DNA from: a virus | DNA: 53,693 bases | Virus genome (UHGV): UHGV-0129084 | Direction: 5' to 3' (one strand) | In this document: piece by piece, positions 1 to 29,300 of the stretch | How the letters are laid out: each line of letters starts with the position of its first letter | How positions within the stretch are numbered: the first letter of the stretch is position 1 | Notes under the pieces: model-generated | Told to the model about the DNA's origin: nothing | Database searches by the model: none | The model's input: the letters and a program-made list of their open reading frames with translations, nothing else | Translations under genes and position numbers: made by a program

Positions 1-107
1 AACCCCCCCCCGCCTTTCTCGTTCCATCCTGGAACTGTGTCTTACCGACACATTGTCATCCTGACGCTGATAAGATACATGATTTAAAATGATAGGTAAA
101 CACTTAC

Positions 108-701: not shown

Positions 702-1286
702 ATAAACTCCTGAATCAAGCGCCGCGCCGATTTTTTTCCTCGCGCGTGCGCACACGCGTGCGTGTTAATAATTATTAAAATAAACAAATTACTTCCCAGA
801 ACAGGTTTTAATAAAACCTGAACTGAACGAACGAAGTGAGTGAAGTTCACCTCGAACGAAGTGAGAGGTTGTCTTTTCAGGTAATACTCTCCCAGGGAGG
901 TGAGTACAAAATTTCCTCACCAACCTGGTCGTTTCATAACCTGAAAAGTTATGACCTAAGTCTACTGTCAGCTTAGGCTTGGGAAGTTATGGATGACAGC
1001 ACCCCAGAACCGAGATCTTCCCACACTTTATGAAGGGGAGTACTGGATTCAACCTCTCGAAACACCCCAGACTCGACAATCATAAAGTGACCCTTGTCTC
1101 CGCTCACTTTGGTTCCCCCTTCCCCGACACCTAAACGGCACCGGTTCTACGCTGGTAGTGAGCTTTTTTAAACCTGACGCCAGTGACGCTTACCCCCACC
1201 CATCAGGTCGAGTCTCCAGTCTACGACTGGAAACTATCAGATCTTAGCACTTACAATTCACTTTATGAATAGTTTGTACTTATCTA

Positions 1287-2296: not shown

Positions 2297-2479
2297 CTTC
2301 TTTCTCTATAGGTAAGTATATACCTATTTTTGCATTTGATTTTATGTCTGGCAATCAAATAAAACGCGCCAGAAATGCAAACGAGAAGCTCTCTGGCGCG
2401 TTTTTGTGGTGCTGGGTATGTGATTGGCTTACCCAGTACTATAAAGCTCTCTATGGGCTTTATTTTAAGTAGGGGAACG

Positions 2480-11855: not shown

Positions 11856-11888
11856 TGTTAATAGATAAGTACCTACCTATCAATGAAA

Positions 11889-16431: not shown

Positions 16432-16685
16432 GTGTTTTTCCTTTGTGGTTATTTTGATACAAATTCTAAGAGCAATGAGGAGGTAAACAACTATGCATAA
16501 CGGTATGTTAGGAATGAAACGAGCGCCTTAATATACAAAATTTATAAGTAAGTATATACCTATTTATCGTGGCGCAACTTTGCTTGTCTGTATGACTAAA
16601 AATAAGACAGGATCACTGTAGAACGCTATGAGAGCTATTTTGAGGGGGCGTAGATTCTATCTACGCCAATATACGATCTGGAGGG

Positions 16686-17488: not shown

Positions 17489-17529
17489 GCCTCTAGCCGT
17501 TGCGGTTACTGGTCTGAAAGGGTGTTGCC

Positions 17530-17631
17530 ATCCACTATGGAGAGCAAAGAAACCTCTGTAGAGAGCTGAATAACCGCTATGAAGAGTAAAACAACCACTC
17601 TGGAGAGCTGTATATATCCACTGTAGAGAGT
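17530..17631 (+). repeat. Iteron array A (5 copies, 21-23 bp period)
   Basis: 16-mers ATCCACTATGGAGAGC, AACCTCTGTAGAGAGC, AACCGCTATGAAGAGT, AACCACTCTGGAGAGC, ATCCACTGTAGAGAGT starting at 17530, 17551, 17572, 17593, 17616. Confidence 0.7.
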
Positions 17632-17742
17632 AGAGCACATTGTCTTTTATGGATAACTTAATGACTTAATTCTTCATTAACATACTGATATACATAGATA
17701 TATTTTAAACTCTACTCTTAGTCATGATTCTTATGTCCTTAA

Positions 17743-17797
17743 ATATCCACAGAAGAGTAGAGTTACCTGTTCTTGAAATCCTCTGATTTTTATCCAC
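17743..17797 (+). promoter_or_regulatory. Two DnaA-box-like 9-mers in an AT-rich stretch
   Basis: ATATCCACA at 17743-17751 and TTATCCACA at 17789-17797 (consensus TTATCCACA) inside the AT-rich region 17640-17800. Confidence 0.55.
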
Positions 17798-17910
17798 AGG
17801 CCCGATCCAGTAATTCAGATCACAAAGAGAACCAAATAGACCCATAAAGACCCAATAAGATCCCCGCCCACCTCAAACCGTTGTGCCATCTGCCTTCAGA
17901 CATGATCGAT

Positions 17911-18032
17911 ATCCACTATAGAGAGCGAATAATCCACTATAGGGAGCAAAGCAACCACTATAGAGAGGAGAAAAACCACTATAGACGGTAGGATAACCGC
18001 TGTGATGAGTGCTACTATCCACTGTAATCAGC
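17911..18032 (+). repeat. Iteron array B (6 copies, 21-22 bp period) immediately upstream of repA
   Basis: ATCCACTATAGAGAGC, ATCCACTATAGGGAGC, AACCACTATAGAGAGG, AACCACTATAGACGGT, AACCGCTGTGATGAGT, ATCCACTGTAATCAGC starting at 17911, 17932, 17953, 17974, 17995, 18017. Confidence 0.75.
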
Positions 18033-18072: not shown

Positions 18073-19128
18073 ATGAGCGAAAACGGCAATAAAAACATAG
18101 CGATCGTTGAAGCATTTTCAGAAACAGATAAAAAGACAGGCGAAGTTGTTACGTTGGTTCCTAACACTAATAACACTGTTCAGCCTGTTGCTTTGATGCG
18201 TCTGGGCCTCTTCGTTCCGACGCTGAAATCGACATCCAGAGGAAGAAAGGGGCAAATGGTCTCTATGGATGCCTCTGCTGAACTCAAACAGCTGTCTCTG
18301 GCAAAAGCCGAAGGGTACGAAGACATAAGGATCTCTGGCCTTCGGCTTGATATGGATAACGACTTTAAAACGTGGGTGGGAATAATCCACGCGTTTGCCA
18401 AACACAAGGTCGTTGGCGATACTGTCACGTTGCCGTTCGTTGAGTTTGTAAGGCTGTGTGGCATTCCGACCGCCAGGTCATCAGCGAAGTTACGCAAACG
18501 CCTGGACAGTTCGCTAAGCCGTATTGCCACAAATACCATCTCGTTCCGTAGCAAAGGCTCTGATGAGTTTTACGTAACGCATCTTGTGCAAACGGCAAAA
18601 TATAGTGTCAAGCACGATACGGTCGAACTGAAAGCAGATCCCAAGATTTTCGAACTCTACCAGTTCGACAAAAAGGTTCTTCTGCAACTCCGGGCTATAA
18701 ACGAACTCTCAAGAAAAGAATCCGCTCAGGCGCTTTATACTTTTATTGAAAGTTTGCCGCCTGATCCGGCACCAATATCACTAGCCCGTTTACGCGCCAG
18801 ACTTAATCTGACAAGTCGCACTATTACTCAGAATGCGACGGTAAGAAAGGCTATGGAACAGCTGCGAGAGATAGGATATCTCGATTACACGGAAGTTAAG
18901 CGCGGAAACTCGGTCTACTTCGTCATCCACTATAGGCGGCCAAAGTTACGCCAGGCACAAATATCAACAAAAATCGATAATGATGAGACGGAATATAGCC
19001 TCCCAGATGAGAATCAAGATGACATTATCGACGTTGTGCCTGACGAAAAAGAAGGCAAAATGGTCATGTTGAGTAAAGAAGAACTGGCGCTTCTCGAAGA
19101 GTTGCGCAAGGCAAAGACTCGCAAATAG
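18073..19128 (+). CDS. repA: Plasmid replication initiator RepA (P1/RepFIB-type, iteron-binding)
   Basis: 351 aa; [41 protein letters not shown] match what I recall of P1 RepA; flanked on both sides by iteron arrays. Confidence 0.8.
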
Positions 19129-19130
19129 CC

Positions 19131-19570
19131 CAACCACTGTAGTTAGTAGTAAGGCTCACTATCCACTGTAGTGAGCCTTACTTATATCTGTAATTCGCTA
19201 TCCACTATAGTGAGTATCGTTATCTGTTGATAACCACTGTAGGCAGTAGAATGCAAATACTGAATTAAATGTTAGTGATCACTAACACTGATGAAACAAG
19301 GGCTGCGAGGTTAGTGGTCACTGGGTATCTTGGAAAATTTACTGTCTATAGTGGTTGTTGTCGCCCTCATCTTTGAGCGTATCCACTGTGGCGAGTGGAT
19401 ATCCACTGAAAACAGCAAAGGCTTACTCACCATAGTGGTTGTTTGATGCGAATGAAAGGCTGTCTACTCGCTACAGTGGTTAGCAGATATGTAGGAAGGT
19501 TTTGTTACTGACTACAGTGGATAATGAGCTGGATACGAATGCGGTGAGCTGGCTACTCACCGCAGTGGTT
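19131..19570. repeat. Iteron array C downstream of repA (incA-like), copies in both orientations
   Basis: About 12 CCACTGTAG / CCACTATAG / CTACAGTGG / CCATAGTGG / CGCAGTGG cores, several embedded in short palindromes (e.g. AAGGCTCACT..AGTGAGCCTT). Confidence 0.65.
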
Positions 19571-19789
19571 GGTGCTATTAGTGTATTTTCTTCAACAGAC
19601 CCCAAAGTGTTCCGGCTTTTGTAGTCAGTTTTCCTGTTTCTGGATCGTACATACGCTATTCACGCCGCTGGTGGACGATATACCCATCTTCACGTTCCAG
19701 ACGCTCAAGAATGCCAGGCTGCTTGAAACCCTTAGCACGCCAGTAGCCGCTTGTTTTCTCGATTTCCAGACCTGCCAGTGTTAATGCCA

Positions 19790-20125
19790 TTATCCAACCT
19801 CCTTGCAGTCATCGAAAAGGTAGCTTTGCTGAGAAGCGTGAACGCCATAGAAGCCCTTGTATTTGTTGTATACGAAGTGGTCTTCTCCGACGCCGGTTAA
19901 TTTGCCATTACGATTTGTGAGATATGGGGATGACAACACTCGATCGTCACGCACAACATAGAACTGGTCGCCGCTGTCTACGACCATCGCTCCATATGGT
20001 GCTTTTATGACGTCGGTAAGAGCGCCATTCTTAACGTCGGCTACAGACATTTCACACTGATAAACAGTGGTGTCGGCCACAACGATCGAAGAAAGAAACA
20101 ACAGCGCGAATGGGATGGTCTTCAT
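19790..20125 (-). CDS. Secreted hypothetical protein (111 aa)
   Basis: N-terminal signal-peptide-like MKTIPFALLFLSSIVVA; start ATG overlaps the stop of the upstream small membrane ORF (ATGA). Confidence 0.5.
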   Translation of the reverse strand: MKTIPFALLFLSSIVVADTTVYQCEMSVADVKNGALTDVIKAPYGAMVVDSGDQFYVVRDDRVLSSPYLTNRNGKLTGVGEDHFVYNKYKGFYGVHASQQSYLFDDCKEVG

Positions 20126-20301
20126 GCTGCCACCTCTTTGATTACATCAAATGCTGAATTAAATACGAGCACGATAGCCAAAGCGTTTATGACTACGTCG
20201 TGCACCGGGGAAAAGACTTTACGAATGACACCAGTGAAAATGCAGTCGATGACAAAAGCTATTGAAACGATGAGTAACAAGTATTCAATAAAAATCTTCA
20301 T
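20122..20301 (-). CDS. Small hydrophobic membrane protein (59 aa), not in the supplied ORF track
   Basis: Hand-translated MKIFIEYLLLIVSIAFVIDCIFTGVIRKVFSPVHDVVINALAIVLVFNSAFDVIKEVAA; below the 60-aa track cutoff; translationally coupled to the downstream secreted protein. Confidence 0.35.
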   Translation of the reverse strand: MKIFIEYLLLIVSIAFVIDCIFTGVIRKVFSPVHDVVINALAIVLVFNSAFDVIKEVAA

Positions 20302-20340
20302 GATAGGTAGATACTAACTTATATAAACTTTACTGTAAAC

Positions 20341-20616
20341 TCACTCAAAAGTGCTGATGCTTAAAATACGCTCAAGATGTTCAGCATCTTCATTACTGAT
20401 TTGTTGAGTCTCTTCTACGTACCAACAGTTGCCGTTATGCCAACAAACACCATCATCATCAACCATCACTGAATCAGCGTCATGACCCGTATATTCAACA
20501 AGAGTACGCTGGATCAGCGCGTCAGTTTCTTCATCGTTAAGGCCATCGACTTTGACCATAAAAAGCGGAAACACGTCATAGACAGTGCTGGTAACGATTC
20601 GAACTAAAACTCTCAT
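20341..20616 (-). CDS. Hypothetical protein (91 aa)
   Basis: Intact ORF with conserved AAGGAAAAACACATG-type initiation region. Confidence 0.4.
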   Translation of the reverse strand: MRVLVRIVTSTVYDVFPLFMVKVDGLNDEETDALIQRTLVEYTGHDADSVMVDDDGVCWHNGNCWYVEETQQISNEDAEHLERILSISTFE

Positions 20617-20671
20617 GTGTTTTTCCTTTTGTGGTTAGTGTTTACTTATTTTGTTAGTTATGAATAGGCGA

Positions 20672-21097
20672 TCAATCTTCTTGGTTAGGGAAAAACTGTT
20701 CAATAACTCTGTCAACGGCTGTGTCTATATGGAGTAGATGCCACACAACCATATCTTTGCTTCCCATGCCTTGTGTGAATATCACGTCATACTTACGCCA
20801 TGCGCAGTGGAACCAATATGCTGAGTCATCAATTGGTAAATCCTCTCCCGCCTCTTTGAAGTATTTCAGCAGCATTGCCTGCTCTGCCGTTGGCGTTGGA
20901 CCTATTTCCTGAGCGTACATACGGATGAATCGCTGCCAGTCTGTCTCCTCGGGGGTTGGATCTGGTGGGGTCATTTCTGCGATAGCGTTTCGTAGCTGAT
21001 GCGCCCAATCAGGTTCAGGAAAGCCTTTTGCTGCTTCATCATCAATAACATCCAGAGCCACGTTTGCGGCATCGTAGAGTTTCTTAATAGCTGTCAT
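20672..21097 (-). CDS. Hypothetical protein (141 aa)
   Basis: Intact ORF; AAACAAATTGTTT palindrome 16-32 nt upstream of the start. Confidence 0.4.
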   Translation of the reverse strand: MTAIKKLYDAANVALDVIDDEAAKGFPEPDWAHQLRNAIAEMTPPDPTPEETDWQRFIRMYAQEIGPTPTAEQAMLLKYFKEAGEDLPIDDSAYWFHCAWRKYDVIFTQGMGSKDMVVWHLLHIDTAVDRVIEQFFPNQED

Positions 21098-21152: not shown

Positions 21153-21172
21153 AGGCGTCCAACTGGACGCCT
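21153..21172 (-). terminator. Rho-independent terminator after the SPFH gene
   Basis: AGGCGTCC-AACT-GGACGCCT hairpin with T-run on the minus strand. Confidence 0.65.
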
Positions 21173-21188
21173 GAACTTTTTAGGGGAG

Positions 21189-22019
21189 TTATTTCACTGT
21201 AATGAAAGGAGTGTTAGCCCCTTGAGTCATGTACTGCGGTAACTGGCCATTCCATTTATTGATGGCTTCCAGTTCCATAACGTTCGGGTTTTGACGCAGA
21301 GCTTCACCGCGCAGACGAATGGCGTCTGCTTCTGCTTGCGCACGAGCACGGATAGCATCAGCTTCACCATTAGCCTGTTCACGTAGCATATTCGCCTCAG
21401 CTTTACGTTGTTCAACTTCCTGCTGACGTTGCAGAGTACGCTGGTTAGCCGTTACTTTGGCGTTGATAGATTCAATGACGGTTTTTGGGTAATCAGGCTT
21501 TCCAACCCATGACAGGCTCAGTACCTCAATACCAACCGGAGACATCTCTTTCTGAATGTCTTTCAGTGCGTTGTCCAGCAATTGCGCCTTACCACCGTCG
21601 ATAAATGAGTCAGTGGTCATACGGCTGGCCAAACGGTTTAGAGAGTCGGCAATTTTCTGACGCAGATCTGATTCGGTGATATCGTCTACGCCTTTGCGAT
21701 AGGTCTGGAACACCGTCGTTACCTTGTCACGATTAACCAGATACGCAACGCCAATTTTGTGACCAATAGCAGTACCGTCACTCATCTGGAATGTGAACGG
21801 CTCGTCGTAGGTCTTCATTTGTTTGAAGGTCGGGAATACGTAAAGTTCGGTGTTAAGACCTGTCCATTGGCGACCAACGCCAACCACTTCACCGATCCCT
21901 TTGTCTTCACCTAATTTGTTTACTTTGATGCCAACGTATCCAGGCTCCACGCGATCACAGCCAGTAAGACCCATTGTGCAAATAGCCGCCAGAGCAACTG
22001 CAAGTAAACCTTTCTTCAT
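21189..22019 (-). CDS. SPFH/band-7 (HflC/prohibitin-like) lipoprotein
   Basis: 276 aa; lipoprotein signal LAAICTMGLTGC; coiled-coil C-terminus rich in A/E/R/Q typical of SPFH proteins; terminator hairpin downstream. Confidence 0.6.
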   Translation of the reverse strand: MKKGLLAVALAAICTMGLTGCDRVEPGYVGIKVNKLGEDKGIGEVVGVGRQWTGLNTELYVFPTFKQMKTYDEPFTFQMSDGTAIGHKIGVAYLVNRDKVTTVFQTYRKGVDDITESDLRQKIADSLNRLASRMTTDSFIDGGKAQLLDNALKDIQKEMSPVGIEVLSLSWVGKPDYPKTVIESINAKVTANQRTLQRQQEVEQRKAEANMLREQANGEADAIRARAQAEADAIRLRGEALRQNPNVMELEAINKWNGQLPQYMTQGANTPFITVK

Positions 22020-22022
22020 TAC

Positions 22023-22223
22023 TTATTTCCCTTTTGCTTTGATTAATGAGTTGATAAACTTACGACCAGCAATAAGACCGATTACAGGAGCACCAAAACC
22101 AACGATAACTCCAAACATGACGGCTAAATCACTCTTGGTAGAAATCAGCGACGGAACCAGTAAACCGTAGATGAGAGCCACTGAAAGGCCTGTGGCTACT
22201 GCCAATAGATAGATTTTGATCAT
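22023..22223 (-). CDS. Small integral membrane protein (66 aa)
   Basis: Two predicted hydrophobic helices; directly upstream of, and co-oriented with, the SPFH gene. Confidence 0.45.
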   Translation of the reverse strand: MIKIYLLAVATGLSVALIYGLLVPSLISTKSDLAVMFGVIVGFGAPVIGLIAGRKFINSLIKAKGK

Positions 22224-22291
22224 GTGTTTTCCTATGTGGTTGTTATGCGAAAATAATAAGTAAGTACTTATATATTTTCAAGAGATAAAAA

Positions 22292-22310
22292 AGGCGTCCT
22301 GTGGACGCCT
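22292..22310 (-). terminator. Rho-independent terminator after the RecA-like gene
   Basis: AGGCGTCC-TGT-GGACGCCT hairpin (same stem as the 21153 terminator) with T-run on the minus strand. Confidence 0.65.
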
Positions 22311-22315
22311 TGTGT

Positions 22316-23389
22316 TTACTCTTCTACTGACTCGGTGGGGTTGTCTTTTGCTCTTCGGTCGTCGATTGCCTGCAAAGCCGCAATGATTTCAGCCAGTGGC
22401 TTCTCCCGATACATCTCGACGATCTGCGATTTGGTGTATTTCTTGTCACCAATTTCAACTCGCCCGCTGGCGTTCTTTGGCAGGTATCCTTCTTCCAGCA
22501 TGTACTCGACGAGCGATTCGATAACGTCGAGGCCACGAGTAGGATCGAAGTAGAATTTCCAGGTGCATTTGCCATACGGTGGTGCAACTTTGTTTTTGAT
22601 GCATTCTGCGCCTACGTCCTGGCCGATCTTCTCTTTACCATCCTTCATCACCGATGCACCAAGACGGATACGTACAGAAGCGTAGAACTTCGGTGAATCT
22701 CCACCTGGCGACGTAGTAGGGTCGCCAAACATTACACCGATTTTTGTGCGAACCTGATTCAAGAAGATGATGCAGGCGTTGTATTTGCGTGCCCACAAAG
22801 CCAGAGTAGGGAAGTTCGCACTTGTCGCACGAGCCAGTGCCGTATTGTCGTTCATGTTTAGCTGATCTTTGTCTTTGGCAGTGCCTTCAGCCATCTTTTC
22901 GAACTTCTCGGCTTTGGAGTTCGGAACCATAGACGCAAGTGAGTCAGCCACGATACAGATAGGTGCTGATTCAGGAATAAGCTCTTCATCACGTACCAAT
23001 TTAAGAATTGTGCCGATCAACTCTACAGAGTCTTCGAAGGTATCAGGCTGCTTGTATACCCACTGACCGTCATCCTCATCTGCGTTCAGGCCATTGGCTA
23101 CAGCCAGGCCAACGTCAAAACTGTTTTCATGATCGAGGAATACCGCCAGACCATCTTGTTTTTGAGCGGAGATCATCGCTGCTGTTGCAAGGAACGTTTT
23201 CCCTGCACTTGGAGGACCGAATACTTCGACGATACGACCACATGGGAAGCCGCCATCGTAACGACCAGAAATAGCTTTGTTTAACGGAGGAAAGCCTGTG
23301 TCAATCCAATGAGTTACTTTCTGAATTTCGTCGTTGCTACCGATTTTCTTTTTCAGAGCAAGTGCCAGTGCGGATTTTCCTTTTGCCAT
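22316..23389 (-). CDS. RecA/UvsX-like recombinase
   Basis: 357 aa; Walker A GPPSAGKT, IIFLNQVR and KFYASVRIRLG segments parallel RecA. Confidence 0.75.
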   Translation of the reverse strand: MAKGKSALALALKKKIGSNDEIQKVTHWIDTGFPPLNKAISGRYDGGFPCGRIVEVFGPPSAGKTFLATAAMISAQKQDGLAVFLDHENSFDVGLAVANGLNADEDDGQWVYKQPDTFEDSVELIGTILKLVRDEELIPESAPICIVADSLASMVPNSKAEKFEKMAEGTAKDKDQLNMNDNTALARATSANFPTLALWARKYNACIIFLNQVRTKIGVMFGDPTTSPGGDSPKFYASVRIRLGASVMKDGKEKIGQDVGAECIKNKVAPPYGKCTWKFYFDPTRGLDVIESLVEYMLEEGYLPKNASGRVEIGDKKYTKSQIVEMYREKPLAEIIAALQAIDDRRAKDNPTESVEE

Positions 23390-25808: not shown

Positions 25809-26240
25809 TCAACGGGGAGTAATAAAGCGTTCAGAGCCTAATCGCTCTAATTCAACGATGGCCATCTTTGACGCCTGAACGATCATGTCTCGGCGATGCG
25901 AAAAGGCGGCGACAGCATGTTTGTATATGTCTGCGATGTGCCGTGCTTCATCCAACTTCTGCCGTTTAGACAGATACTGTGGGTTTGTTTTAACCTTAGC
26001 GTCCAGTACAGACTCGTTGAACTTAATGCCGTTCATACTCAAGTTCTTACGCTCTGTGTCGTATAGCTTTGCTTCAACAGCTTCAAGGTTAAGTTTTGCC
26101 TCTGCGACACTTCTTTCTGCATGAGCGAGTTTTGAGCCATACTCCATTAAAAGGCGGGGTTGTCTACGCCAGACTTCCTCCAGATTGTCTCGGTCAAACT
26201 CGAGATCAGACATTATTTTCTCGTAAATATCGGTGATCAT
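25809..26240 (-). CDS. Hypothetical protein (143 aa), possibly UvsY-like recombination mediator
   Basis: Size, helical character and position next to the SSB gene fit UvsY; no sequence motif confirmed. Confidence 0.3.
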   Translation of the reverse strand: MITDIYEKIMSDLEFDRDNLEEVWRRQPRLLMEYGSKLAHAERSVAEAKLNLEAVEAKLYDTERKNLSMNGIKFNESVLDAKVKTNPQYLSKRQKLDEARHIADIYKHAVAAFSHRRDMIVQASKMAIVELERLGSERFITPR

Positions 26241-26335
26241 GTGCTTTCCTTTTTACTTATCATCTTATATTGATTATATCATTGTGATGATAAGGCAAGG
26301 AGTTCGAGGATAGGGGATATGAGGGGATAAGAGAA

Positions 26336-26358
26336 AACATGGCCATAGAGGCCATGTT
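26336..26358 (-). terminator. Rho-independent terminator after the polymerase gene
   Basis: AACATGGCC-ATAGA-GGCCATGTT hairpin followed on the minus strand by TTTTCTCTT. Confidence 0.6.
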
Positions 26359-26365
26359 TATTGGA

Positions 26366-29300
26366 TCACGACTTAATAGTTTCTGCTACGTCGGCTAATA
26401 TCGCTTCTAGTCGTTCTCCCTCTTCAGGTCTGAAGTAAAGAATGTTGGGGTTAAACCCGTAAAAGACAGTAACGTCAAGGTCTGGAAGATACTCCTTCCT
26501 GCCGACCAAATCGGATGGCTTGTTTTTGTTGTTAAACAATGAAGTTGCCCGGCTGCCACACGTCAGCACATAGGTCGGACGCACCAGATTGATCTCTTCA
26601 CGCATAAAGTCGGTGAACTGGCCGATCTCGTCTTTGGTGTAGTCTTTTTCTTTGTCTTTAACCTTCTTGCAAACACCTGTGACATAGAGATCGCCCATGC
26701 GTAAATCTCCAGCCGTCAATAGCTTGGCCTTAAAGTCGTCGTATCCGTTCTCCATAAAGTAACCGGTTCGAGCATCATTGCCGTTCGCATTGTCCAGAAT
26801 GATCATGATTTTCGGCTTAATACCAATGCTGGGGCGGATTAGTTCATCACCTAAGCCCATTTCAGCCGCCATCCGCGTCATGAGTACGTTAATTTCAGCC
26901 GAACGTTTGGGGTTCATCTCAAACGGACGTGAGGCTTTAACTGCGTCTATGACAAGGTTTCCCATCAATTCAGCTTGGTCGCGTAGGCGCTCTGGATCAG
27001 TTGCTGGCAGACTGCCTGGCTCGATGGATGCAAACGCCCCTACTTTTTGCAGCGATTCGCGCACTCGACTATTACAGGCACGTTTCTCGACAGCTTCTTC
27101 GAATTGCGCCAGTGACTCGAATTTGCCGCCAACTTTTTCTCGCGCTCTCATGATGGCTTGGCAGCCATTCTCAGAACACCCTTTCACAGCAGAGAAGGGC
27201 GCATACAGCACCTGGCTGCCATCTTCAAGCGTGCGGATCTCGATTCGGTTAGATGACACGTTAACGTCTGGTGGCAATACGCGAATACCATAGGTCAGCG
27301 CATCTTTAACCAGCCCCTGGTGTTTATCTTCGCCAAGAATAGTGAGAGCAGCAGCGAAGAACTCCGCGGGATAATGAGTTTTCAACCACATAGATTGATA
27401 ACTGATTAAGGAGTAAGCAACAGAGTGTGATTTGTTGAACTGGTAGGCACCATTCTTTTCGAATGCGGTCCAGATCTCCTTCGCTTTCATCTCTGATAGC
27501 CCTGGATGTGACGCTGTAACGCGTACTGCGTTTATAGGTAGTTTTGCGCCGTACTCAAGTGCCTCTTCGACAGTTTTCAGAGTTCCGTCTTCGCATTTAA
27601 AATGTTCCGCACGGTGAATGCGCTGTGTAGTGCCATCTTCCAGCTCAACGTCTATCCAGCCAGCTTGAGCCTGAACGATGAACTTCTCGCCCATGCTCTT
27701 CATTTTTTCCATGTCTTTTTTGCCGATCGCTTTACGAACGCCGTCAGCTTCAGCCATTGTGAAGCCAGCAAGCAATCGAGTCGCGTTCATCGTCTGTTCC
27801 TGATAGAGAATCACGCCATTTGTTTCTGCGGTAAGTTCATCAAGAACGGGGTGTAATGATTCCGGCGTCATAAAGCCTTTGGCTACAGAAACATAGTCAT
27901 CCAACATGCCTGACTGAATTGGCCCCGGCCGGAAGAGTGCAGTCGTAGCAACAACCGTTTTAAAGCTCATTGGCTCAATTCCACCACCTAAATCTTTAAG
28001 CAGCTTGCGCATTGGGCCTGATTCAAGCTGGAAAACACCTTGAGTGTACCCAGCAGCAAAACCATCCAGCACCTTGCGATCTTCAAGAGAAATGGCATCA
28101 AGATTGATATCTTCACCTGTGTTCTCTTTTATGTAGCGTTTTGCACTATCGAGCAAATCGAGAGTTGCCAGACCAAGTACGTCCAGCTTAATTAGGCCCA
28201 TAGCCTCGCAGTAACGCTTGTCAAATGCGATACAACGCGCGTCACCACGGCGTTCAACCGGTGTACGTTCTGTCAGAGGAACACCTGCTACGATCATCCC
28301 TGCCGCATGTCTACCAAAGCCACGCATAAGGCTTTGTAACTTGCAGGCTGCATTGAATGCATCAGGATATTTTGTTGCGTATTTGTCGAGACTTGCCAGT
28401 TGTTCGCGCAACTCTTCCAATGGAAGGCTATCATCCTCGACGTTCTTCAGTTCTTTTGATACCGCCATATCTGCGGACTCCACACCATAAATACGAGCGG
28501 TGTCACGTAGTGCAGAGGCTGCGCCCAGGTAGGTGAAGTTCGGAATGCCTGCAACGTAATCTTCGCCGTAGCGTTCATTCAGATACTCGATCACCTCATG
28601 GCGACGTGCCTGGCTGAAGTCCAAGTCCGCATCCGGCAAGTCGAGACGCTCAGGGTTGATGAAACGCTCAAACAGAAGACCGTGACGGATTGGGTCGACG
28701 TTGGTTATGCCTATGCACCACGCCACCAGAGAACCGGCAGAGGAACCACGACCAGGCCCAACGGGAATGCCAGTTTCACGACTATGATTCATCAGATCGC
28801 GCACCATCAGGAAGTAACCACAGAATCCCAGGCGAGTCAGCGTGTCCATTTCGTACTTTAGCCGCTCAACATAAACCCTGTTCTCAGAAGCAGGTGGTGT
28901 GTATCCAAACTCTTTTGTGGTAAGACGTTTACGCAGCCCTGCAACAGCCAGTTTCATCAGCGTTGCAGGTTCGTCGTCTGCCATCTTGGGCAGTGCTGGT
29001 GGCAATTCATGCCAGCGCCATGTGCAGGCATCGATAATGGAGTCCTGCGTTGTTGAGGCCATTGCAGCTGTTACCGGCACATCCATGCGAACGGAGAAGG
29101 CTTTAAGCGCCTCAAGGAGATGGCGACGACCATTGATGGCGTTATCTCGCTGGTGGGGGATACGCAGACGATGCGGCTGGTCGATTTTGATGTTGTTCGT
29201 AACCATGTGCGCAATGTCTTTAATGTCTGCATCGTCGATCGATTCGTAATAAGCGGGATAGAACGCCACTGGCTCTATTTTCAATGCGCTGGCGACTTTC

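What the first reader, a model, noticed from the sequence alone, without database searches (positions are those of the whole stretch)
19790..20301. Translationally coupled small membrane protein and secreted protein next to the replicon
A 59-aa hydrophobic ORF missed by the 60-aa track cutoff ends in an ATGA overlap with a 111-aa protein carrying a signal peptide. Such coupled membrane plus exported pairs in phage accessory regions are often exclusion, immunity or toxin-like modules.
Basis: inference. Interest (0 to 1): 0.45.

Follow-up and report, generated by a model that had tools for sequence, protein, structure and literature searches.

The report
Stress-induced membrane plus periplasmic barrel operon
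Next to the plasmid replication genes of an SSU5-type phage-plasmid sits a real, conserved little operon for a tiny inner-membrane protein and an exported beta-barrel protein; its function is unknown, and in a near-identical element it is silent in broth but is the most strongly switched-on phage unit inside macrophages.

Summary
The genes lie on the minus strand: a 59-aa two-helix membrane ORF (20122-20301) overlaps by ATGA a 111-aa ORF (19790-20125). The 111-aa protein has a Sec-type signal peptide. A third coupled gene, a P1 Cra-like protein, is cut short in this window by a nonsense codon.

The window is an SSU5-type phage-plasmid, 98.6% identical here to Escherichia phage Cyrano. Both ORFs are under purifying selection. 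The trio keeps its order in every SSU5-like lineage examined, even at about 30% protein identity, so it is core rather than accessory.

Published RNA-seq of Cyrano shows the orthologues are silent in LB. They rank 1 and 2 of 123 genes for induction in macrophages, with about a 13-fold step-up at a conserved promoter-like site.

My best guess, at low-to-moderate confidence, is a conditionally expressed periplasmic binder or inhibitor that protects the envelope or excludes other phages. A toxin role is unsupported.

The parts
20311..20339 (-). Sigma-70-like promoter TTTACA-17 nt-TAGTAT, starting 1 nt after the stop codon of the upstream 91-aa gene and ending 9 nt before the ATG of the 59-aa gene
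   Evidence: The consensus scan finds it. The last 24 nt before the ATG are identical between the window and the SSU5 clade, although synonymous sites in the adjacent genes are saturated. By-eye inspection of the sequences finds -35/-10-like hexamers at 17-nt spacing in distant lineages L020 and L007. Cyrano RNA-seq steps up about 13-fold (log2) between CYRAN_59 and CYRAN_60 in macrophages at 6 h. The transcription start site itself was not mapped.
20302..20319 (-). Conserved motif AGTTAGTATCTACCTATC overlapping the -10 element and abutting the ATG, leaving no Shine-Dalgarno sequence for the 59-aa gene
   Evidence: It is identical in the window, Cyrano, SSU5 and L005; L003, L004 (pMT1-type) and L006 differ by at most one base or one indel in the wider region. 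GTTACTATC[TC]ACCTATC is also present upstream of the small gene in L020 and L007, whose iterons differ. Related copies occur elsewhere in the window: 6 with up to 3 mismatches against 0.82 expected.
20122..20301 (-). 59-aa small inner-membrane protein with two hydrophobic helices (about residues 3-25 and 36-52) and a cytoplasmic RK-x-x-x-P loop; D19 and N39 inside the helices are invariant
   Evidence: Searches give the ORF and its hydropathy. It matches phrog_2535 at E 3.7e-31. Selection acts in frame. Alignment A5 shows the invariant residues. Homologues are found only in SSU5-type elements. Shorter relatives of 45-51 aa with the same loop motif sit at the same position in L007, L016 and L020. 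The topology is inferred from the positive-inside rule.
20122..20125 (-). ATGA stop/start overlap between the 59-aa and 111-aa genes
   Evidence: Read directly from the sequence. It is conserved in all 7 close loci. L016 has a GTGA overlap, L020 a 1-nt overlap, and L007 an 8-nt gap.
20131..20136 (-). Shine-Dalgarno GAGGTG for the 111-aa gene, lying inside the 3' end of the 59-aa gene
   Evidence: The SSU5 clade has AGGAG at the equivalent place.
20075..20125 (-). Signal peptide of the 111-aa protein (residues 1-17, MKTIPFALLFLSSIVVA, predicted cleavage VVA|DT)
   Evidence: A rule-based check on 21 homologues supports it. AF2 gives low pLDDT for residues 1-19, with the fold starting at residue 20. 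No SignalP was run.
19793..20074 (-). Mature 94-aa periplasmic domain: closed 8-stranded up-and-down beta-barrel (broken into about 10 DSSP segments) with conserved Cys24 and Cys107 and conserved loops D50-S-G-x-Q-F55 and S66-P67-x-L69
19578..19790 (-). Third coupled gene, P1 Cra-like (phrog_804), starting in a TAATG overlap with the 111-aa stop and preceded by AAGGAGGT. In this window it is truncated to 44 aa by TGG>TAG at 19656-19658.
   Evidence: The gene is intact (70 aa) in Cyrano, CMS-2020a and pCTX, and intact in SSU5 and pMT1 as annotated 213-nt genes (71 aa by the ORF listing in pMT1).
19540..19564 (-). GC-rich 10-bp hairpin just after the full-length cra stop. It is a likely operon end or RNA stabiliser shielding the iterons, and has no U-tract.
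   Evidence: RNA fold gives a z-score of -3.05. It is conserved in Cyrano and SSU5. CMS-2020a has a different hairpin at the same place.
18073..19525 (+). Context: repA (18073..19128) and its downstream iteron array (19132-19525), convergent with the trio

Best explanation
**What is shown.** This is an autonomous three-gene operon of SSU5-type phage-plasmids, read on the minus strand from its own promoter at 20339-20311. Translation is coupled from gene to gene by ATGA and then TAATG overlaps. The products are:
1. a 59-aa two-pass inner-membrane micro-protein;
2. a Sec-exported, about 94-aa, two-cysteine 8-stranded beta-barrel released into the periplasm;
3. a small basic Cra-like cytoplasmic protein, inactivated in this window.

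In the near-identical Cyrano the operon is kept off in ordinary culture and switched on strongly under intracellular (macrophage) stress. It is not a constitutive lysogeny gene.

**What is inferred.** The barrel is the working part. It occurs on its own in unrelated phages. Its conserved residues sit in two loops, which by strand order should lie at one end of the barrel, as in small periplasmic inhibitor proteins. I propose that it binds and neutralises a protein that attacks or crosses the envelope. The target could be the cell-wall-degrading or DNA-delivery apparatus of an incoming phage (exclusion) or another wall hydrolase. The membrane micro-protein would be a lineage-specific helper that positions or modulates it at the inner membrane.
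For: **Real genes.** Selection acts in frame, homologues are conserved and PHROG matches are full-length.

**Export.** The signal-peptide features hold across all 21 homologues; the two-Cys mature domain holds in 20 of them.

**Own promoter and conditional expression**:
- CYRAN_60 and _61 are at about 0 fpkm in LB, 3-5 in DMEM and 340-380 in macrophages at 6 h.
- They rank 1 and 2 of 123 genes for the macrophage-versus-DMEM change at 6 h.
- The upstream genes CYRAN_58 and _59 stay low.

**The barrel is autonomous and sits where phages keep envelope or exclusion genes:**
- second gene of the operon divergent from cro in Pantoea phage PdC23;
- after an Arc/antirepressor block and directly upstream of a tape-measure-like gene (my reading of the sequence);
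- in a tail module;
- after a primase in a satellite-like element.

**Possible co-regulation.** The expression profile tracks the gene divergent from the putative repressor (r 0.989) and the integrase (r 0.985). This fits partial prophage derepression, though it rests on only five conditions and a hand-picked subset of 63 genes.
Against: - No functional test exists.
- There is no sequence link to any exclusion or inhibitor family.
- Silence in LB lysogens argues against classical prophage exclusion.
- Cyrano's replication and most structural genes are not co-induced in macrophages, so simple lytic derepression is not established either.
- Pairing with the membrane protein is seen only within SSU5-type elements, where everything is syntenic. 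It is therefore not independent evidence that the two proteins work together.
- The pHCM2 lineage of S. Typhi carries a deletion fusing and disrupting both genes and persists in thousands of isolates. The module is dispensable there.
Confidence: 0.4

Rival explanations
1. Host-adaptation (lysogenic conversion) factor. The barrel would be a PliC/MliC/PhiA-like periplasmic inhibitor of host lysozyme or another host-derived envelope-attacking protein. It would be induced by the phagosome environment and help the carrier bacterium survive inside macrophages.
For: - It is the strongest macrophage-versus-DMEM induction of all 123 Cyrano genes.
- The terminal Cys contexts, YQC[ED] and [DN][DN]C, resemble E. 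coli MliC by eye.
- SSU5-type elements reside in Y. pestis (pMT1), S. Typhi (pHCM2) and AIEC LF82.
Against: - hhalign against verified E. coli MliC gives only 23.6% probability, and only over the signal peptide and first Cys.
- There is no Pfam MliC hit at E<=1.
- The family's conserved loops (DSGxQF, SSPxL) are not the SxSGAxY / YxxxTKG motifs I recall for MliC/PliC. That recollection is from memory.
- Homologues occur in phages of non-pathogens and in metagenomes.
- The module is disrupted in the pHCM2 lineage of the macrophage-dwelling S. Typhi.
- The authors did not test Cyrano genes for macrophage survival.
Confidence: 0.2
2. Toxin-type or lysis-type module. The 59-aa hydrophobic protein would be a membrane-damaging toxin or holin-like protein, for plasmid addiction or lysis timing. 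The exported protein would be its modulator or antidote.
For: - The protein is small and very hydrophobic, with conserved polar residues inside its helices.
- It lies beside the replicon.
- It is tightly off in normal growth.
- Its expression profile resembles that of the hicAB toxin-antitoxin genes.
Against: - No hit to any toxin, holin or defence model, and no known antisense RNA family.
- Addiction modules are normally transcribed constitutively. Cyrano's real TA genes are among its morons, and this unit is not.
- Cyrano has a separate annotated holin-endolysin-spanin cassette, CYRAN_22-25.
- In macrophages the unit reaches about 380 fpkm while, according to the paper, no Cyrano virions are detected there.
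- The replicon can be swapped without the trio: CMS-2020a has different iterons immediately after the cra stop.
Confidence: 0.1
3. Replicon-associated control function. The trio, through the Cra-like protein and transcription running toward the iterons, would modulate plasmid copy number or the switch to lytic replication. The envelope proteins would be incidental passengers.
For: - The trio is convergent with repA and abuts the downstream iteron array, with only a hairpin between.
- The position is conserved in all SSU5-type lineages examined.
- Cyrano annotates Cra as a putative regulator.
Against: - repA expression is flat while the trio changes more than 60-fold.
- The upstream motif does not co-vary with iteron specificity.
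- The replicon swap boundary lies immediately after cra.
- cra is knocked out in this window while the two upstream genes are intact.
- Barrel homologues occur in phages without plasmid replicons.
Confidence: 0.05

Closest known systems
T4 Imm and Sp (spackle) superinfection-exclusion proteins
   Same: A phage-encoded small inner-membrane protein plus an exported periplasmic protein acting at the envelope. They are expressed on infection or induction rather than constitutively. This is the analogy behind my leading mechanism, and the description of T4 is from my own knowledge.
   Different: No sequence match to any Pfam model. As I recall, Sp is helical, not a beta-barrel, and imm and sp are not an overlapping gene pair. 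Nothing here shows inhibition of a tail lysozyme or of DNA entry.
PliC/MliC/PhiA/ACP periplasmic lysozyme inhibitors
Cap15 (CBASS effector: transmembrane helices plus minimal beta-barrel)
   Different: Identity is 2%. Cap15 is one polypeptide whose barrel is cytoplasmic and binds cyclic nucleotides. Here the barrel has a cleavable signal peptide and a conserved Cys pair, so it is periplasmic. There are no CBASS genes nearby and no PADLOC hit.
HK97 gp15-type moron exclusion genes next to the tape-measure gene
   Same: Distant barrel homologues (P0045, P0051) sit directly upstream of a gene of about 710-770 aa that looks like a tape measure. As I recall, that is the slot of the HK97 gp15 exclusion moron.
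   Different: As I recall, gp15 is a membrane protein unrelated in sequence. The SSU5-type copy is beside the replicon, not in the tail module. The tape-measure identification is my reading of the sequence, not a tool result.
P1 Cra (cre-associated protein), for the third gene
   Same: phrog_804 match at E 3.8e-35 for the full-length form. Cyrano and SSU5 annotate it as P1 Cra / Cre-associated.
   Different: The function of Cra is unknown. Here it is the last gene of the trio beside repA, not beside cre, and it is truncated in this window.

Membership tests
PHROG phrog_2535 / phrog_2077 / phrog_804 (uncharacterised phage protein families) | Full-length HMM match | tested here: met
   E-values are 3.7e-31 (residues 1-59 of 59), 8.8e-64 (1-111 of 111) and 4.1e-18 for the truncated Cra. 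Full-length Cra gives 3.8e-35. All three families are 'unknown function'.
Sec/SPase I secreted proteins | Basic n-region, hydrophobic h-region of about 10-15 residues, small residues at -3/-1, no lipobox Cys at +1 | tested here: met
   The window protein reads MK / TIPFALLFLSSI / VVA|DT. The same layout is found in 21 of 21 homologues by rule-based script. AF2 leaves residues 1-19 unstructured. No trained predictor (SignalP) and no experiment were available.
MliC/PliC lysozyme inhibitor family (Pfam MliC) | Sequence membership (HMM or profile match) | tested here: not met
   No Pfam family at E<=1. The A3 profile against all PDB sequences gives nothing relevant. hhalign of A4 against E. coli MliC gives 23.6% probability over 34 columns.
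MliC/PliC lysozyme inhibitor family (Pfam MliC) | Small periplasmic 8-stranded beta-barrel fold | tested here: inconclusive
MliC/PliC lysozyme inhibitor family (Pfam MliC) | Inhibits lysozyme through a conserved loop inserted into the active site | not testable with these tools
   This needs an enzyme assay or a complex structure.
Phage superinfection-exclusion systems (Imm/Sp, SieA/B, Sim, gp15, Cor/Llp) | Sequence membership in a described exclusion family | tested here: not met
   No Pfam, NCBIfam or PADLOC hit for either protein.
Phage superinfection-exclusion systems (Imm/Sp, SieA/B, Sim, gp15, Cor/Llp) | Expression blocks infection by the same or other phages | not testable with these tools
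   This needs plating and adsorption/injection assays.
Prophage 'moron' as defined in PMC9928086 | [quoted passage not shown] | tested here: not met
   CYRAN_60 and _61 are at the detection floor in LB and are absent from the paper's Table 1 list of 13 Cyrano morons.
Type I / small membrane toxin or holin families | HMM match to a toxin or holin family, or an associated antisense RNA family | tested here: not met
   No Pfam, NCBIfam or PADLOC hit apart from one chance-level PADLOC match, E 0.0087, to typeIV_Cas5. No Rfam match at E<=1 in 19300-20700.
Cap15-like CBASS effectors | Single polypeptide with N-terminal TM helices and a cytoplasmic nucleotide-binding barrel, encoded next to a CD-NTase | tested here: not met
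   There are two separate genes. The barrel carries a signal peptide. There is no PADLOC hit and no cyclase among the annotated neighbours.

The most novel reading that the evidence does not exclude
The exported barrel would found an undescribed family of phage-borne periplasmic inhibitor proteins. In SSU5-type phage-plasmids, including relatives of pMT1 of Y. pestis and the AIEC LF82 plasmid Cyrano, it would be wired, together with a membrane micro-protein, to a promoter that fires inside macrophages. It would then act as a lysogenic-conversion factor protecting the cell wall of intracellular bacteria, translated from an unusually short or leaderless mRNA.
Probability: 0.12. Interest if true: 0.7.

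Novelty: new variant of a known kind. Interest (0 to 1): 0.48.

Why it matters
SSU5-type phage-plasmids are common in E. coli, Salmonella, Enterobacter, Klebsiella and Yersinia. The pair's DNA matches 457-472 plasmid records. Almost nothing is known about what these elements do for their hosts beyond carrying resistance genes.

This operon is conserved in every lineage examined, belongs to no described family, and is often only partly annotated. In the one published transcriptome it is the element's most macrophage-responsive unit, a point the authors did not discuss.

That makes it a cheap, well-defined target for three questions:
- Does a phage-plasmid supply an envelope-protection or exclusion function on demand?
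- What signal turns it on?
- What does this beta-barrel family, scattered among unrelated phages as a stand-alone gene, bind?

If the function turns out to be trivial, the finding is still a useful annotation correction: a real 59-aa gene, a signal peptide and a three-gene operon.

Tried and rejected
**Family libraries.** Pfam, NCBIfam and PADLOC scans of both proteins, Cra and distant homologues found nothing usable.

**PDB by sequence.** The A3 profile against PDB sequences gave only a chance hit at E 1.1.

**AFDB search.** The afdb50 Foldseek library was unavailable.

**MliC homology.** hhalign gave only 23.6% probability. Homology was rejected as unproven.

**Conserved upstream motif as a RepA/iteron site.** Rejected. 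L007 and L016 have quite different iterons, while L007 keeps the motif.

**Motif as the operator of the master repressor.** Not supported. The other copies in the window are mostly antisense to genes and are not upstream of the co-regulated genes. CYRAN_83, downstream of one copy, shows a different expression pattern.

**PhoP, CpxR or LexA boxes in the promoter.** I looked by eye only and saw no convincing conserved match. No tool was run.

**Small hydrophobic ORF next to the PdC23 homologue.** It follows the barrel gene in reversed order and shows no detectable similarity to the 59-aa protein, so I did not count it as a second instance of the pair.

**Literature.** Searches by protein accession or locus tag found nothing. 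A 2026 preprint on phage-plasmid heteroresistance could not be opened. PhiR41 searches were uninformative.

Full report
**What the window is.** The 1.3 kb around the finding is 98.6% identical to Escherichia phage Cyrano (OV696614), 99.6% to phage CMS-2020a over the part they share, and 76.5% to Salmonella phage SSU5. It matches 457 plasmid records from Escherichia, Enterobacter, Yersinia, Salmonella, Citrobacter and others. The window is therefore an SSU5-type phage-plasmid. Cyrano and SSU5 annotate the two ORFs as hypothetical proteins (CYRAN_60/61, SSU5_066/067), followed by a 'P1 Cra' / 'Cre-associated' gene and then, convergently, RepA.

**The observation.**
- Both ORFs lie on the minus strand: 59 aa at 20122..20301 and 111 aa at 19790..20125, sharing ATGA at 20122-20125.
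- The 59-aa product is very hydrophobic (GRAVY 1.56). It has two hydrophobic stretches separated by the loop I-R-K-V-F-S-P-V.
- The 111-aa gene has GAGGTG 6 nt upstream of its ATG, inside the end of the 59-aa gene.
- A third gene starts in a TAATG overlap with the 111-aa stop and has an AAGGAGGT ribosome-binding site.
- This third gene is the Cra homologue (phrog_804). In this window a TGG-to-TAG change at 19656-19658 cuts it to 44 aa. It is intact in Cyrano, SSU5, pMT1, CMS-2020a and plasmid pCTX.
- A 10-bp GC-rich hairpin follows the full-length stop (19540-19564; fold z -3.05). The downstream iterons of repA then begin.

**Are they real genes?**
- Between the window and the SSU5 clade, the 111-aa gene has dN/dS 0.07-0.11.
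- The 59-aa gene has 37.5 synonymous against 21.5 non-synonymous differences in its frame. The two other frames give 7.5 against 42.5.
- Both match PHROG families end to end.
- The 59-aa family was found only in SSU5-type elements, with 52 clusters at 54% identity or more.
- It is missing from the PLSDB gene table of at least one RefSeq plasmid but annotated in pMT1 CO92.

**The exported protein.**
- A search of 1.84 billion representatives with a profile found only 27 relatives. Among them are about a dozen full-length proteins of 112-119 aa at 24-32% identity.
- All 21 aligned members have a basic N-terminus and a hydrophobic core. The rule-based script finds small residues at -3/-1 in each, and 20 of the 21 have a mature part with exactly two cysteines. 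For P0041 the script's cleavage site is probably wrong.
- Invariant columns are C24, F55, S66 and C107. Nearly invariant are A46, D50, P67, L69, Y93 and F104.
- With the deeper alignment AlphaFold gives pLDDT 89.4, about 95 over residues 20-110. The model is an all-beta up-and-down barrel.
- Against viral models the best matches (TM about 0.7) are uncharacterised small proteins and 'lipoproteins' of Erwinia, Xanthomonas, Pectobacterium and Salmonella phages.
- No Pfam, NCBIfam or PADLOC model matches. A profile comparison with E. coli MliC, whose sequence I verified against 2F09, gives only 23.6% probability.
- The safe statement is this: it is a periplasmic, probably disulfide-stapled, 8-stranded barrel of the size class that includes lysozyme inhibitors, but it is not demonstrably one of them.
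- The two conserved loops (50-55 and 66-69) should lie at the same end of the barrel, judging by strand order. This is an inference, because I could not inspect the coordinates.

**Conservation of the arrangement.**
- Y. pestis pMT1, SSU5, and Kluyvera and Buttiauxella plasmids have the same layout: a 91-aa gene, a 40-nt gap, then the 59-aa gene, ATGA, the 111-aa gene, an overlap, and cra.
- Three much more distant SSU5-like lineages from metagenomes (L007, L016, L020) have barrels 29-32% identical to ours. They keep the order: about 90-aa gene, small two-helix gene of 45-51 aa, barrel, 70-aa Cra-like gene, iterons, Rep3-type rep gene. The junctions are overlapping or nearly abutting.
- Their small proteins share the loop motif [RK]-[KR]-A-[FL]-x-P.
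- The trio is therefore a core feature of this phage-plasmid group, not an accessory island.
- It is not part of the exchangeable replicon. In CMS-2020a a different iteron set begins immediately after the cra stop.

**The barrel outside SSU5-type elements.** The barrel occurs without any 59-aa homologue in several other settings:
- as the second gene of the operon divergent from cro in Pantoea phage PdC23, where an unrelated 46-aa hydrophobic ORF follows it;
- after an Arc/antirepressor block and directly upstream of a large gene that looks like a tape measure;
- in an island with an integrase and a Tlde1-domain gene, again upstream of such a gene;
- after a primase/VapE gene;
- inside a tail module.

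The barrel is thus a self-sufficient, horizontally scattered phage gene. The membrane partner is specific to the SSU5 group, so co-occurrence there is not independent evidence of joint function.

**Regulation.**
- The 39-nt gap upstream of the 59-aa gene contains TTTACA-17-TAGTAT (20339-20311).
- Its last 24 nt are identical between the window and SSU5, although neighbouring synonymous sites are saturated.
- The core GTTA[GC]TATC[TC]ACCTATC is also upstream of the small gene in L020 and L007. There a Shine-Dalgarno sequence and about 14 nt follow it.
- In the window clade the ATG follows the motif directly, with no Shine-Dalgarno. The predicted transcript would therefore have a leader of only a few nucleotides. 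This is an inference, since no start site was mapped.

**Published expression data.** The S1 Table of PMC9928086 re-analyses GEO GSE154648. It covers LF82 carrying Cyrano in LB overnight, DMEM at 1 and 6 h, and THP-1 macrophages at 1 and 6 h.

| Gene | LB | DMEM 1 h | DMEM 6 h | Macrophage 1 h | Macrophage 6 h |
|---|---|---|---|---|---|
| CYRAN_60 (59 aa) | 2.32 | 4.34 | 3.34 | 6.99 | 8.60 |
| CYRAN_61 (111 aa) | 2.54 | 4.69 | 3.06 | 6.16 | 8.44 |

- Values are mean log2(fpkm+5), and 2.32 is the floor.
- In fpkm this is roughly 0 in LB, 3-5 in DMEM at 6 h, and 340-380 in macrophages at 6 h.
- The two genes rank first and second of 123 Cyrano genes for the macrophage-versus-DMEM change at 6 h (+5.4 and +5.3 log2, median +0.9).
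- The genes just upstream stay low: CYRAN_58 at 4.1 and CYRAN_59 at 5.0 in macrophages at 6 h. There is therefore about a 13-fold step-up exactly at the predicted promoter.
- The unit is not among the 13 Cyrano morons defined in LB.
- Most replication and structural genes are not induced. The authors report no Cyrano virions in macrophages, though Cyrano is inducible by ciprofloxacin.
- Across the five conditions, within a hand-picked subset of 63 genes, the profile is most like hicB (r 0.997), the gene divergent from the putative repressor (0.989) and the integrase (0.985). This hints at partial prophage derepression, but five conditions are few.
- The caveat is that these data are from Cyrano, not from this window's element.

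**Interpretation.** Four things are shown: a real, separately promoted, translationally coupled operon; an exported barrel; a two-helix membrane micro-protein; and conditional, stress-linked expression in a near-identical element. What the proteins do is inferred.
- I favour a periplasmic binder or inhibitor acting at the envelope, giving exclusion of incoming phage or protection against a wall hydrolase, with the micro-protein as a lineage-specific helper (confidence about 0.4).
- A specific role as an anti-lysozyme host-adaptation factor is attractive because of the macrophage induction and the fold class. It lacks sequence support, and the disruption of the module in the S. Typhi pHCM2 lineage argues against it (0.2).
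- Toxin or lysis roles (0.1) and replicon control (0.05) have little support.

**The pHCM2 variant.** The 101-aa protein P0016 has more than 1000 contigs, and a cluster member is named from S. Typhi CT18. It arises from a 206-bp deletion between two 12-bp direct repeats, GGCGCGATGGTT, one in each gene. The deletion fuses helix 1 and the loop of the small protein to residue 45 of the barrel. The N-terminal strands and Cys24 are lost, so the barrel cannot form as modelled.

**Novelty and interest.** The sequences themselves are already in databases as hypothetical proteins. What is new is the recognition of three things: a conserved three-gene operon with its own tightly controlled promoter, an undescribed exported-barrel family scattered among phages, and its standing as the top macrophage-responsive unit of a phage-plasmid related to pMT1 and pHCM2. 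Interest is moderate. The hypothesis is directly testable, but no function is established.

Noticed in passing
window 19656-19658 (minus strand): The Cra-like third gene carries a TGG>TAG nonsense change at codon 45, giving 44 aa instead of 70. It is intact in Cyrano, SSU5, pMT1, CMS-2020a and plasmid pCTX. This could be a recent pseudogene or a sequencing error.
   Followed up: yes
L024:2501-2806 (pHCM2-type plasmid), compared with L002 (SSU5): In the S. Typhi pHCM2 lineage a 206-bp deletion between two 12-bp direct repeats (GGCGCGATGGTT) fuses the first helix and loop of the small membrane protein to residue 45 of the barrel. The result is a 101-aa ORF found on more than 1000 contigs.
   Followed up: yes
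window 91-105(-), 2314-2328(+), 11867-11881(+), 16550-16564(+), 20302-20316(-); weaker copy at 1270-1284(+): A motif like AAGTAnnTACCTATY, preceded by TATAAGT-like bases, recurs 6 times with up to 3 mismatches against 0.82 expected by chance. All copies checked are intergenic, and three are antisense to the surrounding genes. It does not track iteron specificity or the macrophage-induced gene set. It is unexplained.
   Followed up: partly
L022 (Escherichia phage CMS-2020a), immediately after the cra stop; window equivalent about 19578: CMS-2020a is 99.6% identical up to the cra stop and then switches to a different hairpin and different iterons (CACCGCTGACAGCAT-type). A replicon swap has its boundary exactly at the end of the trio.
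   Followed up: partly
window 17522-18030 and 19132-19525: Iterons of the type A[TA]CCACT[AG]TAG flank repA on both sides, and the downstream set occurs in both orientations. This is a P1-like oriR/incA layout. Distant lineages have quite different iteron sequences.
   Followed up: partly
window about 21153-22311 (minus strand): Upstream there is a separate unit: promoter-like TTGAAA-17-TATTAT (22281-22253), a small membrane protein of about 66 aa, and an SPFH/Band-7 protein (21189-22019). It is bracketed by two strong terminator-like hairpins (22311-22291 and 21172-21153). Its Cyrano orthologues CYRAN_56/57 are also induced in macrophages, by +4.4 and +2.5 log2.
   Followed up: partly
L023 (NZ_CP047004.1) 2094-2308: The 59-aa gene is not listed in the gene table of this RefSeq plasmid, although the flanking genes are. 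It is annotated in pMT1 CO92, Cyrano and SSU5. The PLSDB table is incomplete, so this may not reflect the original record.
   Followed up: no
Cyrano CYRAN_62 (equivalent to window 19578-19790): cra shows about 70 fpkm in DMEM at 6 h, when the two upstream genes are at 3-5 fpkm. Possible reasons are an extra internal promoter, greater stability of the 3' end, or read-through from convergent repA if counting was not strand-specific.
   Followed up: no
window 22316-23389 and 25809-26366, compared with Cyrano CYRAN_55 and CYRAN_50/51: The window's RecA-like gene is 357 aa, whereas Cyrano's is 779 aa, probably through an intein or insertion. The window also has no room for the hicAB toxin-antitoxin pair that Cyrano carries between the PolIII-alpha and UvsY-like genes.
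   Followed up: no
window 38239-38482 (minus strand): There are three tRNA genes in a row (Rfam tRNA, 39.7-75.5 bits). They correspond to the Asn/Thr/Ser tRNA cluster annotated in Cyrano.
   Followed up: no
P0010 (Pseudocitrobacter faecalis plasmid, 167 aa): In this plasmid the small membrane ORF and the barrel ORF are read as one 167-aa protein. The cause is an apparent frameshift or read-through at the junction, and the C-terminal Cys is replaced by Ser.
   Followed up: no
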